Translations under genes and position numbers: made by a program | The notes under the pieces: generated by a model | What the model was told of the DNA's origin: nothing | The model's input: the letters and a program-made list of their open reading frames with translations, nothing else | The model's database searches: none | In this document: positions 7,439 through 56,428 of the stretch, piece by piece | Numbering within the stretch: position 1 is the stretch's first letter | Layout of the letters: every line of letters begins with the position of its first letter | Source: Lophium mytilinum | Taxonomy: Eukaryota | Length of the DNA: 64,000 bases | Assembly: GCA_010093605.1 (NCBI GenBank) | Contig: MU004182.1 | Span: 1,025,032 to 1,089,031, forward strand | Reading direction: 5' to 3'

Positions 7439-8086
7439 GTCTGGTTAATTGTATCACAGACTAAAGGAGCGTTATGTAAGGCCTAATTACCAGCATTCCA
7501 GCGTAGTTCTCTACTGCCTTCAGGCTGACTACTTATAATGAGGCAGATTCGCAATATCATTGCAGTCGGGTGGACTAATTAGCAATCCAGATAAAGTTAT
7601 ACCCTAAGGTCCACACCTCAGCTTCTTTGACTGTCACACGTCTTCTTCAGAAGACAAGCTATACACATATGCCCATATAACGCTATTATCTAAGAGACAT
7701 TTCCTTTGCGCTGGTGCTCCTTCTGATCTTGCTAGGCTATATCAGCCTCCGCCTTTGTTTCATTCGTCATCCGTTAATATTGACCACTTGCTCGCCCTCC
7801 TTCCATATGTCAATATCATTGTAGCCCGCCAAGCGCAGGTGCTGGAAGGTATGGGTTCCCTAAGATGTCCATCTCCGCGGACCGAACGCCGGTTACACCG
7901 ATTAAAACCATCCTGACAAGAACGGTCCAGACTGGCGTGATGGCGAACTACACTGCACCGGATAGATATTGCTGCTGTCACGGGTAGTCAGGTTTGGAAA
8001 AGAGAAGCCGCTGTCAACTTGCAAGAACGGTAAGTCAGATACTGTCTCTTAACTATATCAGGCATCAAAAAGAAAAGCATGTTAGC

Positions 8087-8190
8087 GTCCGGCGCCGCGG
8101 ATCGAACGCGGGTTACACCAACTATAGCGGGCTGCGCCACATGGCGCGGCCCTGGAGCTGGTGTGTTATAACCAACTAAACTACACCGGA
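8087..8190 (-). tRNA. tRNA-like Pol III gene, copy 1; best reading is an atypical intron-containing tRNA-Trp(CCA), identity uncertain
   Basis: Minus strand: acceptor stem TCCGGTG/CGCCGGA; box A TAGTTTAGTTGG; T-arm CCGCG-TTCGATC-CGCGG; CACCAG-CT-CCA-G...TTGGTG; terminator TTTTCTTTTT about 10 nt downstream. Confidence 0.7.
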
Positions 8191-8388
8191 TTGACTCTGC
8201 TTTGGACGGGGGCTTGAACTACGGCACTTGTATACGCGCAGCCTTCACCTCTTTGGAGAAATTCAAACAAGGGACTGCTGAACTTCCGAAAATCCCAGAC
8301 GACAAGAGCGTGAAGTATAACATCAACTTGAAAATAATGCGAGTATCTAGGCGGAACGATGCGCAAAAGTGAAGCAAAAAAACAGTAT

Positions 8389-8500
8389 GTCCGGCGCCGC
8401 GGATCGAACGCGGGTTACACCGGTCAAGGTATGAGCTAGGCTATTGAGCCCGGCACAAAGAGCTTGCCGTATGCGTTATGGCCAACTAAACTACACCGGA
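8389..8500 (-). ncRNA. tRNA-like Pol III gene, copy 2; no canonical anticodon loop
   Basis: Same acceptor and T arms as copy 1, D arm differing by 2 nt; unrelated ~56-nt central hairpin; T7 terminator at 8376-8382. Confidence 0.7.
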
Positions 8501-9508
8501 TTAATGATCTCTCCAAATTATTCCTGTTATAACCATCCTCTTCGTTGAAAGCAAGGAAAACTACAATAGTTTTCGAGATGACGTAGCGGGCGGATAGTAA
8601 GTTTTGAACTTCGTAGTGACAGGCAGCGAGGCTGTCGTAGAAAGAAGTGTACGAGGAGCTATAAGAGATATGTGAGAGGAATGGTCAGCAAAGCGAAAAA
8701 GGTGAGACTCAATTTTGAGTTCTGTACATCTGTCTGCCGCTGCTTGGGGTGCTCCAATGCATTTTTAAAATTGAAAACTCTTAGCTTTGCGCTATTTGGA
8801 AACTTGTTGAAGCATTCCGAGCAGTGGCAAACAATTGCACCAACTTACGTTAGTCTCTATTTACACAAGGCGCAAGAATCTCCCAGAATTGAGTATTGAT
8901 TCGGGGCCCTCTTTGAGCATTCTACATGGAGGCAATCCGGCGTCCCCTCTGGTATCGACGAAAGTATCAGATAAACGGCAAACGCACATAAAAACGGCGG
9001 GCTGGAACGATGCATCGAGCCTGTCGTCAAGGTCGTTCATGCGATCCCGCGTAGATTCATCTCTCGACATTGCCCTCGTAAGGGGCGTCCCTGGGTGGCG
9101 AGAAACCCCCGTGCCGAAAAAAAACAATTGTTCAAACATTTCAAGTATTTCCTCGTAAGCCTATGAAGTCATAACCAATGAAATAATGTTTTTTGGGCAT
9201 TTATCCTTAAGATGGGAGTTTGCGACTAGATATATACGTCGGTCTTGGTCATGCTGTCGATCGTTCCGTTTATGGCGTCCAGAACCAAATCGGCTTTACA
9301 CCCCTACTCCACCACCACTACCTACCTATTTTCCGGTTTCGGAGCCTTAGGGCAATAGTTTTGTTGAAGAAAAATATATCTAAAAGCGGTAAGAATACTT
9401 AGACTCTAAAAACGCATTCACTTTAAAGTTTCTCCGTGCGAGCGCCCGGTGTCTTGGCGTATGACTTCAGCCTGCTTACATGATGAGGTCAGCTAATCGT
9501 ATTACAGG

Positions 9509-10231
9509 GGGCAATAGTCTGGATTGCCAGCATCTTGGCGGTAAACGTTTCACGATGCCAGCAAACGCCACCAAGACGCTAAAGGCTTTAAGCGATGCCA
9601 AATACAGTGTAGGCCACTGTAAATCAGCATCGCACCCCGGCCGTCAGCGTCCATATGTTGTTTTCTGGCATGCACAAATCAGACGCTCACGTGACCCAAA
9701 GAAAATCAGGTATTACAAGCCTTTTTTTAATCGCTTCATCGTACTTATTATAAACGTTCTTAGTAAGGCTATACTTCATTTTAGTTGCGCAAGCTGTAAG
9801 GTGTGCAAGAGGGAGAGAAGAGGGTTAGGGGGCGGCTAAGTATTATGTTATCTAGTGGTTGCTCGGCTAACTTAGCACGTGCCATGCACGTACACGCCTC
9901 CCCCTTTATTATCTGCCTATCCCCCTCGCCCTCTTATTATCCTATACACCTTACAGGCACACCTAGAGGACATGCGACCGGGGAAACTACCTGCTGCAAG
10001 GCAAAAATCCTAAAATGCGTGTCGCTAGAGTTTGCTTCTAACCATCACGTAATGGCTAAGCAGCTCTGCGTAGGCTGTATAAGTTGTGCATGCTAGATAA
10101 TGCTGCACGGACGCTAATGTTTAGTGCTACAGCTATTTTTGGCTTAGAGCGTGAACGCTAACGTTCGGGTGGTATTTGCTGGCATTGTAAAACGTTTACC
10201 GCTAAGATGCTGGTATTCCAAACTATTGCCC
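9509..10231. mobile_element. Non-autonomous Mutator-like (MULE) DNA transposon / MITE, 723 bp
   Basis: TIRs GGGCAATAGT(C/T)TGGA...GCCAGCAAA(C/T)(G/A)CCACC: about 64 bp well matched, loosely extending to about 130 bp; 9-bp TSD TATTACAGG at 9500-9508 and 10232-10240; no transposase ORF. Confidence 0.85.
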
Positions 10232-10876
10232 TATTACAGGCAACTGAGACGACCCCAGTCGACTACTTTTCCGGGCTAATGTTGATTTGGCTCAAAGACT
10301 GATTGGCTAGGAGGCTGCTAATTACCCTTAAGGCCGGCCGGAAAAGCTACCTCAAATGGTAAGTCTTTGGCTTGATTTTAGCGCTTGTTCACCGGACGTG
10401 GTGAACTGCTGTAGAAGTGTGGGCGCTCTTCTAGGATTCAACCAGGTTTTACTCCGTACACCCTAGTAATCTTGAGATTGTTAAATATTAAATTCGTATT
10501 TGAACTCATCTAAGTGGCCGATGTTGGTAGGGTTGCTGTTTCGGGCACAATGGCTTGTCTAGATGTGGCATAGATTTACACAAGAACAGGGGCCTGCCTT
10601 CCCGTGGATACCGTCTTCTCTGAGATTATACATACGCCACCCTTGGCGCGCTATTTTAACCTTACTTGTTGAGCGTATCAGGTCACCCCTATCGAGCTGA
10701 TTTGTGGGCCTGTCGGCACCCATCGGCGCCCATCGGCGCCTGGCAGCTCGATTCCCCGACCAACTTTACGCTCATGGGTTTAGTGCGTGCCAAGGGTGGC
10801 GTATGTATAATCTCAGAGAAGACGGTAGAGTGAGATGCACTCTTAACTGTCTCTTATTAACCTTACAAAGGGTACG

Positions 10877-40322: not shown

Positions 40323-41604
40323 TGCTCTTGGAGGCACAAAAGACAGCGTAACGACGGCTGTGAGGTTAGTCCTCAAGATGGCACAGCTTTCGAGAAAATA
40401 TCTGGGACGTCAGTCAGCCCCTCGACCCTAGCCCTCAACAAGCTATCTCCAGGATCTGCCTTATCCATCTATCCCTGGTACCGACCGCACAGTCCGTCGG
40501 ATGATAGCGCTGGAGGGAAGGCAATGCCAAGGCCGTTGATGCCGCTCATCAGGAAACATTTGCCCGCACATATAACAAGACTTATGGACAGCTGGCTAAT
40601 AAGAGGACGTCGTGCTCTATGTGAAGAAGCACTAGCAGGTGGAGGGTGCCCCAACTGGCCAACTGCCGCTTCAGAGGGCGGATCGTCACCGGCTGCGCGT
40701 CGTCGCACATGTCCCAGTTTCATTCCCACAATTGCAAGCCATCACTCCGGCCCATACAGGACACGCGGCGAGAGCTTGGCACGCCTGATGTTCTTGCTTT
40801 CGAGATAGATGATCCCGAGACTGGACGGAGGTAGGATGAGGCCTGCGAGATGCGGGCTCGCCGTGAGGAGGCCCAAATGTGAGGAGTGGTTGTGGCCAGG
40901 CACGACGACGAAGCAATTGGCTCTGCAGCCATCAACGAACGTCTCAGCCAAGACAGCGGAGCAGGGCTCGGAGCAGGGCTCCGAGCCCCACGATGAACAG
41001 ACTGCCAAGGCCCGTACAGGGGTTGAAATGAAGCCAAGAATGTCTTCGTCGTCCTCCTGCCCCACATCGGCCGGTCCGTGACGCTTCTCTCAACGTCCGG
41101 TTGTTGTCACCGCATCATTTTCCTTGCACAACCACTGCAATGACCCTTTTCAACTGATAGTCATGGGGCTCATTGCTATCTGCAAGTTTCAAGGAACATC
41201 GTCCTTCCCCAATGGTCATCGCAGCCAATCTCAAGATTTCCTGCAAGGCCCTGCTACATGCCCAAAGCGGCAGCACATGTGGTGTTCTCTGAACTCTGGA
41301 AGTAGGAGGTCGATATGCGCAATTCCGCAGGCTGTATCACTCGCTCTGGATGCTATCCGGGCAGTACCGAGTATTATCATCATTGAGATATTCACATCAA
41401 GTCGCCGGAGTGATTGCCGCCGTCGGGCTTGTAGATTGAAGGGTATGCATGTATCTGCAGAGACCATATCCAGACGCCACATAAACGCCACCACTACGTA
41501 TGCAATATGCATGTTCAGAAATAAGAAATGCACCAGGACTAGCACCACCACCCGGAAATACCCCATCCTATCACAAGAACGTCCTCCAACCAACCACAGC
41601 GCTG

Positions 41605-54001: not shown

Positions 54002-56428
54002 TCAAGCAATGACGAACTGATCCCACTCATCCCTCCCGAGCGCCTCGCCTTTCATGATGCCATGCACGTAGCAGTCCCCTACCACCTCAAACCCCTCCCG
54101 TCCCCGCCCGGGGCGAATCACGAATGGCGTTCGCGCACCAACAAACACCACGATACGATCTCCATTCCTCAAATCCTCAGGCCCAATGCCGATATGCCCG
54201 CTCGCAGTGCGGAAGAGACAACGCCCGCTCATTGTTACGCTGACGAGGGCTGCGTAGCGTTGGGCGTACTCGTGCTTGCGAGGCGTATCGGGGCTTGAAG
54301 AGTGACTAGATGGCCAGGATGGCGTAGGCGATGTAAGTCCCGGCGAAACCCCTCCTGACGTTGCAGCTGTGCGACACAGTTGCTCAAACCCAGACTCCAA
54401 CATCCGCCTCAACCTTGTCTGCGATGCCTTCTCTTCCGTGTCTCTCGACATCGGTAGCCATGGGAAGCGCTCTGAGAGGGCTTGGTCTGCGATCAGGGTA
54501 GTTGCCAACTTCCTTCGGGTCTCTTGATCATCGTCCACGGTGTATCTTGCTACCGCACGGTACTGTGGTATCATACTACAGATGTCATCGAAGCTAGGCG
54601 TTTTACTGATAGAGTCGCTGCGATCTTCGATTGTGTCGAAAACAAACCCCTCAATTACAAGGCGATTGGTGCCGGAGCTAAAGATTATGGGCGTAGGCGG
54701 CGTGAGCGAGTCTTGCGGACCTCCAATACCTGCTGAATACTTGCGAATATTCAGAAAGGGTCTGTACCGAGGAGAACTACGCCAATCCGGAACCCAGGAT
54801 GCCGAATCTAAGGGACGGAATGTGCCGGCAAGGTGCAGTATATCGAGCGTCTGCGTCCTTTCGAGCGCGTTCCGTGCAAACTTGGTGTAGAACGCCTCAG
54901 GCGATTGGGTGTAGTAGTCCTGCCCAAAGTCGATATAGGACTCTGCGTTCTCGGCGAAGCTGAGGAGTGCGAGGATACGATCTTGTGCTCGAGCTGTATC
55001 TGCAGCGTGGAAGAGATTCAATGAGTCTAGTAGACCAAATCCTTGTGTAAGCTCGGGGCAGCTCTTCATCAAGTCCATCAAACGGAGACCTTGTAGAACG
55101 CCTAGTACGGTTCCTCGGAATAGTGTTATTCGTGAGTCGACATCGTAAAGGAATTTGATTGCTTCGGCGAAGTCGTCCCAGTCGCACTGATATGGACCAC
55201 ATGAGAGGATGGCTGCCCGAGATGTCGTGACTTCTTGTATCACCCACCGACGCCTAAACCAGGAACGGGTCAGAAAGTGCTGGAGTGTTGGTAAGCTAGG
55301 CTGCATAGAATCGGCCACGGTCTGAGGAACGTCCTTTCCCAACTTCATAGTGGTGAAGGGGTAGAATTGCTGGCGCCATCGGCCTAATTCTTCCAGCCAT
55401 CGAAGAGTCTGCCCACCGCCTTGCCCTTCATCTCCAAGCCAAACCTGAACTCGGGTAGCTTCTTGATAGATACGTTTCATTTGCTTGACTTGGTGCATTT
55501 TCTCTCCGCTGTCGGCTTGATTGATGCATCTTTTCATTCAATTAGTTTCGCTTAGTGGAGAGAGAAATGGAAATTGTCCTTACACAGCGTCAATCCAGAA
55601 CACAATCTCCTTCGTTGTCGAGCGATAGGCTCTCAAGGCAGCGTTCAGGCTATCAGTGATTCTTAAATGCCACATATCTCGTCTTTCAGACGGACTTCTC
55701 GAGCCTCGGCGGAACGAAGGAGTATCATCACACCACATGACATTAGGCAGCTCCGGTTTGCCCCATGCATAAGACAACGCTTCGTAAGATAATGGGATGC
55801 GATTGTTGTCAACAAGGTCGGCTTGATAGAAACTACAGTGCAGATCGTCGCCTGGGTACCTTGCAGGGTGCAGTTCAATGAGCCTGATGGTGTGGGCGCC
55901 TTGAAGCTTCGAGTAGGGATAGAGAGGCACATCTTGCAGATGATGAGACCGAGAAAAAGCACTAGCTGCGCTTTGAGGTTGAAAGCTCTCTGGGGCTTTT
56001 CTGGCGTTAGTACAACTAGTTTGGCTTAGACCGTCAAAGCTGCTTCGAGGATGACGATGGCGGGCAATGCCTTCGTCAGAGTGTCGTCGTGTTTGTGGAT
56101 GGACCATGTTGTACCAGCCATCGTAGCTGTATGTTTCTTGTCCGAAACCTTGATTAGAGGGACCGTACTCTCGAGGCGGGTAGTATGGGTATTTCAAGGG
56201 AACGTGGAGTGGAGCCTCAGGCGCAGTAGGTAGCAGAAGAGGGGGATGGCCGCGATATGTCCTGTCATCTGATGAATCCTCGCTCGTTTCTGTCAGGCTG
56301 ATATCCGAGCGGTAATGTTCTTCTTCACGTGAGAGTTTCTCTCTCCGGCTCCTTCGGATTTGGTCACGGATTCGTCCACCAGCGTATAACACTGTAGCCA
56401 CTAGTGGCAGAACAGCAGTAAAGGACAT
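54002..56428 (-). CDS. HET-domain (HET-6-like) heterokaryon incompatibility protein; intron 55530-55583
   Basis: IRLIELHP, YEALSYAWG, FWIDAVCINQAD..EK..QV..M..IY..A..V.VWLG, WFRRRWVIQE, SWVPDW, GHIGIGP...GD, VGDCYVHGIM. Confidence 0.92.

What the first reader, a model, noticed from the sequence alone, without database searches (positions are those of the whole stretch)
8067..8500. Tandem tRNA-shaped Pol III genes with a shared scaffold but unrelated hairpin 'cargo' in the anticodon position
Seen: two minus-strand genes about 200 bp apart share an identical 33-nt 3' block (GGTGTAACCCGCGTTCGATCCGCGGCGCCGGAC) and an identical 5' block (TCCGGTGTAGTTTAGTTGG). Each has box A, box B and its own oligo-T terminator, but the middles and flanks are unrelated. 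Copy 1 folds CACCAGCT/AGTTGGTG + GGGC/GCCC + GCGCC-ATGT-GGCGC; reading it as tRNA-Trp(CCA) with an intron needs a 6-bp anticodon stem and a C discriminator, both atypical. Copy 2 folds CAT-CGG-CAAG/CTTG-CCG-GTG + GGGCT/AGCCT and has no canonical anticodon loop. Inference: conserved arms with freely replaced yet still paired centres look like selection on the scaffold rather than decay. These may be non-decoding tRNA-like RNAs that carry variable hairpins (small-RNA precursors, splicing-endonuclease-released introns or decoys).
Basis: partly seen in the sequence, partly recalled or inferred. Interest (0 to 1): 0.75.

Follow-up and report, generated by a model that had tools for sequence, protein, structure and literature searches.

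The report
Fungal tRNA-like genes with odd centres
Two neighbouring genes in a mould genome keep a perfect, identical tRNA body but carry different long hairpins where the anticodon arm should be, so they look like small tRNA-shaped RNAs that no longer decode, although RNA evidence is missing.

Summary
On the minus strand, unit 1 (8190-8087) and unit 2 (8500-8389) share an identical 19-nt 5' block and 33-nt 3' block. Flanks and middles are no more alike than shuffles, and each unit is followed by its own T-run. I add a third, decayed unit (7962-7867). DNA contigs of the same organism show at least two more loci with the same 5' block and other middles.

The window is nuclear DNA of a filamentous ascomycete (HET, kinesin, patatin domains). 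The shared blocks make a complete tRNA body. The middles fold into closed 48- and 56-nt hairpins.

After in-silico excision, unit 1 gives a normal anticodon arm only in two ways:
- an intron placed before position 32 (anticodon AUA);
- an intron at N37/N38 with a 6-bp stem (CCA) and no A-I pair.

Unit 2 gives none in any geometry tried. Rfam's tRNA model matches neither unit at E up to 10.

Best reading (about 0.4): a small, lineage-restricted family of Pol III tRNA-derived genes whose body is under selection and which do not decode. Main rival (about 0.33): a birth-and-death tRNA gene cluster.

No RNA data and no cross-species relatives could be obtained, so function stays inferred. The claim of "unrelated cargo" is overstated. 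Interest is moderate.

The parts
8087..8190 (-). Unit 1, a 104-nt tRNA-like gene. It has a 7-bp acceptor stem (U1:A72 ... G7:C66, with one G.U pair), a D arm, a 48-nt central hairpin, a 4-nt variable loop TAAC, a T arm CCGCG/TTCGATC/CGCGG, and discriminator C.
   Evidence: Sequence. The predicted fold is a cloverleaf at -51.0 kcal/mol, z -4.56, 0 of 200 shuffles as good. ARAGORN -i calls it a tRNA with a 31-nt intron.
8116..8163 (-). Central arm of unit 1: an 8-bp basal helix, a 3x5 internal loop (CCA / GCTAT), the 4-bp helix GGGC/GCCC, a 1x1 mismatch, then GCGCC-ATGT-GGCGC.
   Evidence: Folded alone: -29.6 kcal/mol, z -4.54, 1 of 1000 shuffles as good.
8067..8076 (-). T-run TTTTCTTTTT, starting 11 nt after the unit 1 discriminator. 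Putative Pol III terminator.
8389..8500 (-). Unit 2, a 112-nt tRNA-like gene. Positions 1-19, 21-25, 27-28 and 40-73 are identical to unit 1. The D loop has CC where unit 1 has TT, and position 26 is G instead of A.
   Evidence: The predicted fold is a cloverleaf at -39.3 kcal/mol, z -1.04.
8418..8473 (-). Central arm of unit 2: CAT(A)CGG-CAAG pairs with CTTG(A)CCG-GTG, followed by an irregular stem capped by GGGCT-CAAT-AGCCT.
   Evidence: Folded alone: -18.1 kcal/mol, z -1.91, 42 of 1000 shuffles as good. No excision gives a canonical anticodon arm.
8376..8382 (-). T7 run starting 7 nt after the unit 2 discriminator. Putative Pol III terminator.
7867..7962 (-). Unit 3, a decayed copy. It has 3 mismatches in the 19-nt 5' block (GG18-19 are lost) and changes in the T stem, at A58 of the B box and in the 3' acceptor strand. 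It has no T-run and its predicted fold is not a cloverleaf.
   Evidence: (z -0.27).
8172..8183 (-). A-box-like segment of unit 1, TAGTTTAGTTGG (tRNA positions 8-19). The same letters lie at 8482-8493 in unit 2.
   Evidence: Sequence. The box A consensus is recalled, not taken from a call.
8098..8108 (-). B-box-like segment of unit 1, containing GTTCGATCC (T loop). The same letters lie at 8400-8410 in unit 2.
   Evidence: Sequence. The box B consensus is recalled, not taken from a call.

Best explanation
Units 1 and 2 are members of a small, lineage-restricted family of tRNA-derived genes. They are probably transcribed by RNA polymerase III from internal A and B boxes and terminated at their own T-runs.

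The RNA would keep a full tRNA body: acceptor stem, D arm, T arm and the elbow contacts. It should therefore be handled like a pre-tRNA, meaning 5' cut by RNase P, 3' cut by RNase Z, CCA addition and export. In place of a 17-nt anticodon stem-loop it carries a closed, irregular hairpin of 48 or 56 nt. That hairpin does not have the shape of a eukaryotic tRNA intron, so it probably stays in the RNA, and the RNA does not decode.

Selection appears to act on the tRNA body and on keeping the centre paired, while the centre's sequence drifts. Unit 3 is a dead member.

Shown here: the anatomy, the identity of the arms against diverged surroundings, the failure of unit 2 to yield a canonical arm, and the existence of further loci.

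Inferred: transcription, processing, non-splicing, and any function. My guess is a stable tRNA mimic whose hairpin is the specific part.
For: 1. Arms against surroundings. 52 of 52 arm positions (19 + 33) are identical between units 1 and 2. Upstream, downstream and middle sequences align no better than shuffles: 283, 254 and 209 of 300 shuffles reach the observed scores. Neutral copies old enough to lose all flank similarity should not keep 52 sites intact.

2. Decayed neighbour. Unit 3 has lost base pairs in the acceptor and T stems, GG18-19, A58 and the T-run. So decay does happen at this locus, and conversion does not repair it.

3. Both strands conserved. Both acceptor strands and the discriminator are kept, not only the promoter boxes. 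This points to selection on the RNA.

4. Tertiary contacts. T8-A14, G15-C48, G18/G19 with T55/C56, and T54-A58 are all present by direct reading. The numbering rules are established tRNA knowledge.

5. Independent T-runs at +7 and +11 in non-homologous trailers.

6. Unit 2 excision. 0 of 18 excision positions in the standard geometry give a paired 5-bp stem with Y32, U33 and R37. None do in the 18 geometries of the wider grid either.

7. Unit 1 excision. At N37/N38 in the standard geometry the loop lacks U33. The CCA reading needs a 6-bp stem or a 2-nt junction. There C32 faces an A at the antepenultimate intron residue, so there is no A-I pair; this is read from the sequence against the rule quoted in PMC10275265 (passages).

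8. Rfam. The tRNA model gives no match at E up to 10, even on inputs of 131 and 141 nt.

9. Closed centres. All three middles fold as closed hairpins: z -4.54, -1.91 and -1.70. Where the basal helix differs between units 1 and 2, pairing is kept (A:T and G:T become G:C and G:C), read.

10. More loci. DNA contigs of the same organism join the 30-31-nt 5' block to two other continuations and two other upstream flanks (tables 7 and 8). The family therefore has at least 4 intact-looking 5' halves plus one dead copy.
Against: - No RNA evidence of any kind was obtained.
- No relatives from other species were found, so there is no covariation test. The second organism's contigs are 100% identical over the parts they cover and add nothing.
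- The fold of the unit 2 centre is only marginally better than chance (42 of 1000 shuffles). Its whole-unit z-score is -1.04.
- Unit 1 can be read as a tRNA in two ways. ARAGORN -i accepts both units as intron-bearing tRNAs, though unit 2 only with a G.G mismatch and an irregular junction.
- The exact 33-nt 3' block has the depth of two copies only (330 against about 160). A 'shared scaffold' on both sides is therefore shown for just these two units.
- The 5' continuation of one other locus can be parsed as a normal 5-bp stem followed by a loop with anticodon CCG (by eye). The family may therefore descend from, or still include, ordinary tRNA genes.
- tRNA pseudogenes are common in eukaryotes, whereas functional non-decoding tRNA-like Pol III genes are rare.
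Confidence: 0.4

Rival explanations
1. Birth-and-death tRNA gene cluster. The three units are tandem duplicates of an intron-bearing nuclear tRNA gene at different stages. Unit 1 is still a working, or just-failed, intron-containing tRNA with anticodon CCA. Unit 2 was recently disabled in its anticodon arm. Unit 3 is long dead. The variable middles are mostly fast-evolving intron.
For: - The gradient from intact to decayed within 640 bp.
- Unit 1 gives loop CTCCAGG at N37/N38 with a 29-nt intron if a 6-bp stem is allowed.
- ARAGORN -i calls both units tRNAs.
- The review PMC10275265 (passage) says that intron sequences vary among family members in fission yeast and vertebrates.
- One other locus shares the start of the unit 1 middle and can be parsed with anticodon CCG (by eye). 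This looks like drift of a tRNA family.
Against: - By my count, unit 2 needs at least about 4 changes within roughly 17 exonic anticodon-arm positions to become canonical. It has 0 changes in the 52 arm positions. That is not the pattern of uniform recent decay.
- Unit 1 has no A-I pair, and its 5' splice site lies inside a predicted helix.
- U1:A72 with C73 is not what I recall for eukaryotic tRNA-Trp (recalled, not tested).
- The Rfam tRNA model is silent on both units.
Confidence: 0.33
2. Both units are genuine decoding tRNAs. Their precursors would be spliced at unusual positions, for example an intron before position 32, or by a relaxed endonuclease.
For: ARAGORN -i output for unit 1: a perfect 73-nt cloverleaf, loop CTATAGT, with a 31-nt intron placed before position 32. 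4 of 18 excision positions give that arm.
Against: - Eukaryotic tRNA introns lie between N37 and N38, and the endonuclease measures from the mature domain (PMC10275265, passages).
- Anticodon AUA is not a normal eukaryotic tyrosine anticodon (recalled).
- Unit 2 has no solution in any geometry tried. ARAGORN's solution for it carries a G.G mismatch and an irregular junction.
Confidence: 0.05
3. The units matter as DNA, or as mobile-element relics. They could be TFIIIC-bound boundary elements, or retro-copied Pol III transcripts or SINE heads.
For: - Intact A- and B-box-like segments.
- 4-6 nt upstream of position 1 are shared between unit 1 and the two other loci. This would fit copying of a primary transcript with its leader and its T-run.
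Against: - The units are in tandem and in the same orientation.
- Copy number is low: depths correspond to about 2 copies of the 3' block and a few of the 5' block.
- No tRNA-unrelated body follows, because T-runs come 7-11 nt after the discriminator.
- Conservation of the 3' acceptor strand and the discriminator is not needed for TFIIIC binding (inference).
- By eye, no target-site duplications flank the units.
Confidence: 0.1

Closest known systems
Intron-containing nuclear tRNA genes of eukaryotes
   Same: The cloverleaf body, internal promoter boxes and T-run terminator are shared. An insert of 30-40 nt sits in the anticodon region. Family members have identical arms but different inserts and flanks. 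Intron sequences are reported to vary among family members in some species (PMC10275265, passage).
   Different: The insert is not a clean N37/N38 intron. Unit 1 needs a 6-bp stem and lacks the A-I pair. Unit 2 yields no anticodon loop at all. The anticodon-stem sequences themselves differ between the units.
tRNA pseudogenes and tRNA-gene turnover or remolding
   Same: Clustered duplicates at different stages of decay. Unit 3 fits this fully.
   Different: Units 1 and 2 show no decay in 52 arm positions, although their flanks are unalignable. Both keep terminators.
Functional RNAs carried inside tRNA introns: tricRNAs of animals (PMC4536317, abstract) and free tRNA introns of yeast (bioRxiv 10.1101/2025.11.19.689297, abstract). 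From recall only: the box C/D guide in the archaeal tRNA-Trp intron.
   Same: In each case a tRNA body serves as the expression and processing frame for a second RNA sitting in the anticodon region.
   Different: Those are released by splicing from tRNAs that then decode. Here the splice-site architecture is absent or atypical, and no C/D motifs were seen by eye.
Engineered 'tRNA scaffold' RNAs, and the viral tRNA-like/pre-miRNA chimeras of murine gammaherpesvirus 68. The first is recalled; for the second I saw only the search listing.
   Same: A tRNA-shaped Pol III frame carrying a foreign hairpin. In the engineered scaffold the hairpin replaces the anticodon arm, as it does here.
   Different: One is man-made. 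In the viral RNAs the hairpins follow the tRNA-like part instead of replacing its anticodon arm. No cellular fungal counterpart turned up in my searches.
tRNA-derived SINEs
   Same: A tRNA-like head with A and B boxes.
   Different: There is no downstream body, the terminator follows directly, and there are only a few copies.

Membership tests
Eukaryotic nuclear tRNA gene (decoding, intron-containing) | Cloverleaf body: a 7-bp acceptor stem, D and T arms, and conserved tertiary positions | tested here: met
   Units 1 and 2: sequence, predicted cloverleaf folds and the ARAGORN -i drawing. Unit 3 does not meet it.
Eukaryotic nuclear tRNA gene (decoding, intron-containing) | Intron between N37 and N38 (PMC10275265, passage) | tested here: inconclusive
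   For unit 1 this is possible only with a 6-bp anticodon stem or two nucleotides at the D/anticodon junction. In the standard geometry the loop lacks U33. Unit 2 has no solution.
Eukaryotic nuclear tRNA gene (decoding, intron-containing) | After excision: a 5-bp anticodon stem and a 7-nt loop with Y32, U33 and R37 | tested here: not met
   Unit 2 meets it at 0 of 18 positions and in none of the 18 geometries tried. Unit 1 meets it only when the excision lies before position 32 (4 of 18 positions).
Eukaryotic nuclear tRNA gene (decoding, intron-containing) | A-I pair between N32 and the antepenultimate intron residue, with splice sites in single-stranded bulge and loop (PMC10275265, passage) | tested here: not met
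   In the CCA reading of unit 1, C32 faces A. G37 lies in the predicted GGGC/GCCC helix.
Eukaryotic nuclear tRNA gene (decoding, intron-containing) | Match to the Rfam tRNA covariance model | tested here: not met
   No tRNA match at the gathering score or at E up to 10. A long insert lowers such scores, so this is weak evidence.
Eukaryotic nuclear tRNA gene (decoding, intron-containing) | Transcription, end processing, CCA addition and aminoacylation | not testable with these tools
   No run on record as RNA was listed.
Pol III type 2 gene | Internal A and B boxes and a downstream T-run | tested here: met
   TAGTTTAGTTGG and GTTCGATCC are present in units 1 and 2. T-runs lie at +11 and +7. The box consensus sequences are recalled.
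tRNA-derived SINE | A tRNA-like head followed by a tRNA-unrelated body and tail, in many dispersed copies | tested here: not met
   T-runs come 7-11 nt after the discriminator. Depths indicate about 2 copies of the 3' block and a few of the 5' block.
Archaeal-type bulge-helix-bulge intron | Two 3-nt bulges on opposite strands separated by a 4-bp helix | tested here: not met
   Unit 1 has a 3x5 internal loop, a 4-bp helix and then a 1x1 mismatch. Unit 2 has nothing alike.
tRNA pseudogene | Loss of stem pairing, promoter boxes and terminator | tested here: not met
   Not met for units 1 and 2 outside the anticodon arm. Met for unit 3.

The most novel reading that the evidence does not exclude
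A natural counterpart of the laboratory 'tRNA scaffold'. A fungal family of Pol III genes would keep a tRNA body only as a frame for transcription, processing, stability and export. The anticodon arm would be a diversifying GC-rich hairpin that does the real work, such as binding a protein, acting as a tRNA decoy, or serving as a small-RNA precursor. Each locus would carry a different hairpin.
Probability: 0.3. Interest if true: 0.75.

Novelty: new variant of a known kind. Interest (0 to 1): 0.45.

Why it matters
If these RNAs are made and stay unspliced, they would be cellular tRNA-shaped RNAs that have left decoding yet are kept by selection. That class is known only from scattered cases, and my literature searches found no description of it in filamentous fungi. 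They would also give a natural test of which parts of a tRNA are needed for processing and stability. If they prove to be dying tRNA genes, the locus is still a compact picture of tRNA gene birth and death, which is ordinary.

Tried and rejected
- Whole genome: none is held for this window, so family members could not be collected.
- Expression: the run search listed no holder on record as RNA. One run is only a guessed 'RNA?'. Its even depth of about 3 over intergenic DNA looks like genomic DNA to me. Nothing can be said about expression.
- The 'goes back 302' joint in that run spans the 33-nt repeat. I read it as an assembly-graph effect.
- Public collections:
  - The 25-nt T-arm/acceptor pattern gave 0 hits in metagenome contigs and 0 in viral contigs.
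  - The 19-nt 5' block gave 2 metagenome hits. Neither is tRNA-like, so I treat them as chance. It gave 0 viral hits.
  - The 19-nt block also gave 2 prokaryote hits. Both are the first 19 nt of tRNA-His(GTG) genes in Bacteroidota MAGs, and the rest of those genes is unlike ours. I read this as convergence. It shows only that the block is a normal tRNA 5' end.
  - None of these collections is built for fungi.
- Earlier notes of this scan: nothing by place, sequence or words.
- Literature: no paper found on such fungal genes, and the 19-mer appears in no held text. No supplements were opened.
- Mobile GC-rich palindromes as the source of the middles: 3 distinct GC-rich perfect hairpins in 64 kb, against 1-4 in 10 shuffles. 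No support.
- Box C/D or other known RNA families in the middles: no credible Rfam match.
- Default ARAGORN finds no tRNA in the whole window. With introns allowed it finds only these two units.
Full report
WHAT IS THERE

Read on the minus strand, the stretch holds three tRNA-shaped units in tandem.

The 33-nt 3' block is present twice without a mismatch; 0 of 100 shuffles gave two matches. The 19-nt 5' block is present twice without a mismatch and once with three mismatches; 0 of 100 shuffles gave three matches.

Alignments show units 1 and 2 identical at tRNA positions 1-19, 21-25, 27-28 and 40-73. They differ in two D-loop letters, at position 26, and throughout the middle.

Upstream flanks, downstream flanks and middles of the three units align no better than shuffled sequence. 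For unit 1 against unit 2, 283, 254 and 209 of 300 shuffles reach the observed scores.

Unit 1 is followed by TTTT-C-TTTTT from +11 and unit 2 by T7 from +7. Unit 3 has no run of four T within 40 nt.

The window is nuclear DNA of a filamentous ascomycete. Its long frames carry HET, kinesin, patatin, Kelch and DUF3632 domains. No whole genome is held for it.

THE tRNA BODY

Read directly from the sequence, units 1 and 2 have:
- a 7-bp acceptor stem, TCCGGTG paired with CGCCGGA, with one G.U pair;
- discriminator C;
- T8 and A9;
- a D stem GTT(T)/(T)AAC, with A14, G15, G18, G19 and A21;
- a 4-nt variable loop TAAC;
- a T arm CCGCG-TTCGATC-CGCGG.

The usual elbow and core contacts are therefore all available: T8-A14, G15-C48, G18/G19 with T55/C56, and T54-A58. 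The numbering and these contacts are established tRNA knowledge.

The segments TAGTTTAGTTGG and GTTCGATCC fit the internal box A and box B of Pol III type 2 genes; that consensus is recalled. Predicted folds of both units are cloverleaves with a long central arm. Unit 1 folds at -51.0 kcal/mol, z -4.56 (0 of 200 shuffles as good). Unit 2 folds at -39.3 kcal/mol, z -1.04 (37 of 200).

Unit 3 has lost GG18-19, A58, pairs in the T and acceptor stems, and the T-run. It does not fold as a cloverleaf (z -0.27). It is a dead copy.

The exact 19-nt 5' block also begins tRNA-His(GTG) genes of two Bacteroidota MAGs, whose remaining sequence is unlike ours. I take this as convergence. It shows only that the block is an ordinary tRNA 5' end.

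THE CENTRES

Folded alone, the 48-nt centre of unit 1 is a closed hairpin. It has an 8-bp base, a 3x5 internal loop, the helix GGGC/GCCC, a 1x1 mismatch, then GCGCC-ATGT-GGCGC. Its energy is -29.6 kcal/mol, z -4.54, with 1 of 1000 shuffles as good.

The 56-nt centre of unit 2 is a closed but irregular hairpin: -18.1 kcal/mol, z -1.91, 42 of 1000. The centre of unit 3 also closes: z -1.70, 68 of 1000. The pairing is therefore clear for unit 1 and only marginal for the others.

Where the basal helix differs between units 1 and 2, pairing is kept: A:T and G:T in unit 1 against G:C and G:C in unit 2. Unit 2 carries one bulged A on each strand of the arm.

CAN THEY BECOME NORMAL tRNAs?

Default ARAGORN finds no tRNA in the window. 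With introns allowed it reports exactly these two units.
- Unit 1 is called 'Tyr(ata)', with a 31-nt intron placed before the anticodon loop.
- Unit 2 is called 'Ser(tga)', with a 39-nt intron, a G.G mismatch and an irregular junction.

I then enumerated every single excision. In the standard geometry (one nucleotide at position 26, a 5-bp stem, a 7-nt loop and a 4-nt variable loop):
- Unit 1 gives a perfect arm with Y32, U33 and R37 at 4 of 18 positions, all before position 32, with anticodon ATA.
- At N37/N38 the unit 1 loop reads GCTCCAT, without U33.
- Unit 2 gives none of 18.

In a wider grid (0-2 junction nucleotides, 5- or 6-bp stems, 3-5-nt variable loops), unit 1 also gives CTCCAGG at N37/N38. 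Units 2 and 3 still give nothing.

According to the review PMC10275265 (passages read):
- eukaryotic tRNA introns lie between N37 and N38;
- they pair with part of the anticodon loop;
- they form an A-I pair between N32 and the antepenultimate intron residue;
- they present both cleavage sites in single-stranded regions;
- the endonuclease measures from the mature domain.

In the CCA reading of unit 1, C32 faces an A, and G37 sits inside the predicted GGGC/GCCC helix. The archaeal bulge-helix-bulge shape is not present either.

Rfam's tRNA model gives no match at the gathering score or at E up to 10, even when only 131 or 141 nt are searched. A long insert lowers such scores, so I count this as weak evidence.

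THE FAMILY BEYOND THE WINDOW

Two DNA runs of the same organism (one sample) and one low-depth run of a second, coded organism hold the stretch. Laid on the window, the second organism is 100% identical over the parts it covers, so it gives no comparative information.

In the first organism the 33-nt 3' block is its own graph node, at depth 330 against about 160 for unique sequence. That is two copies: the ones in the window.

The 30-31 nt from 4-6 nt upstream of position 1 to the end of the D arm are also joined to two other upstream flanks and two other continuations (tables 7 and 8). At least two further loci therefore carry the same 5' half with other middles. I have only 30 letters of each continuation.

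By eye:
- Both continuations contain a GGGC...GCCC helix, as do units 1 and 2 (GGGC/GCCT in unit 2).
- One shares about 13 nt with the start of the unit 1 middle, differing by a one-letter indel that would change the triplet CCA to CCG.
- That locus can be parsed as an ordinary 5-bp stem plus loop, but its 3' half is unknown.

The middles are thus not free, unrelated cargo. They look like diverged versions of one ancestral centre.

No relatives were found in the metagenome, viral or prokaryote collections. None of these is built for fungi. Nothing was found in this scan's earlier notes.

READING

The strongest fact is the contrast between 52 unchanged arm positions and complete loss of similarity in flanks and middles, next to a decayed third copy. 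That calls for selection on the RNA body of units 1 and 2. The promoter boxes alone would not require the 3' acceptor strand and the discriminator to be conserved.

Gene conversion across arms of only 19-28 and 33 nt, separated by unlike sequence, seems unlikely to me. That is inference.

Unit 2 cannot yield an anticodon arm, and unit 1 can do so only in atypical ways. My best reading is therefore a small family of Pol III tRNA-derived genes whose RNA is processed like a tRNA, keeps a long hairpin in place of the anticodon arm, and does not decode (confidence about 0.4).

The main rival is an ordinary birth-and-death tRNA cluster with fast-evolving introns. In it, unit 1 still works or has just failed, and unit 2 has recently died (about 0.33). 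Against this rival, unit 2 would need roughly four changes within about 17 anticodon-arm positions and none within 52 arm positions. For it stand the high base rate of tRNA pseudogenes and the tRNA-like parse of one other locus.

Unusual splicing to decoding tRNAs (0.05) and DNA-level or mobile-element readings (0.1) are less likely. T-runs follow the discriminator directly, copy number is low, and the units are tandem and co-oriented.

I found no excess of GC-rich palindromes in the window that could point to a mobile hairpin: 3 distinct, against 1-4 in 10 shuffles.

WHAT IS KNOWN

The closest known kinds are:
- intron-containing tRNA genes;
- tRNA pseudogenes;
- RNAs carried in tRNA introns, namely tricRNAs (PMC4536317, abstract) and free tRNA introns in yeast (bioRxiv 10.1101/2025.11.19.689297, abstract);
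- engineered tRNA scaffolds (recalled);
- the viral tRNA-like/pre-miRNA chimeras (search listing only).

My searches of the held library found no description of fungal tRNA-shaped genes with a hairpin in place of the anticodon arm. The 19-mer occurs in no held text. Supplements were not opened, and subscription journals are not covered.

VERDICT

The finding is a plausible new variant of tRNA-derived Pol III genes, but it lacks RNA evidence and comparative evidence. Interest is moderate (0.45).

Noticed in passing
window 8731-8838 (+), about 230-340 nt upstream of unit 2: A long, nearly perfect hairpin: about 24 bp of stem around a loop of roughly 45 nt, -47.1 kcal/mol, z -5.94, 0 of 200 shuffles as good. 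It gives only a weak chance-level match to a miRNA family in Rfam (E 0.035, 25.5 bits against a gathering score of 60). It could be an inverted-repeat element or a small-RNA precursor.
   Followed up: partly
window 9509-9581 / 10159-10231 and 10609-10651 / 10785-10827: Two inverted-repeat pairs lie in the same 3.4-kb intergenic region. One has 73-nt arms, 84% complementary and 577 nt apart. The other has 43-nt arms, 98% complementary and 133 nt apart. They may be MITE-like elements near the tRNA-like cluster.
   Followed up: no
window 40964-40988: A perfect GC-rich palindrome with an 11-bp stem and a 3-nt loop. It is the only long one in the window.
   Followed up: no
L003 and L004 (prokaryote genome contigs), positions 301-373: The tRNA-His(GTG) genes of two Bacteroidota MAGs begin with the same 19 letters as the fungal units and have T or C, not G, just upstream. 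They sit in tRNA clusters of five genes within 619 nt.
   Followed up: no
window 54002-55537 (-): A frame with a HET (heterokaryon incompatibility) domain. This is what places the window in filamentous ascomycetes.
   Followed up: no
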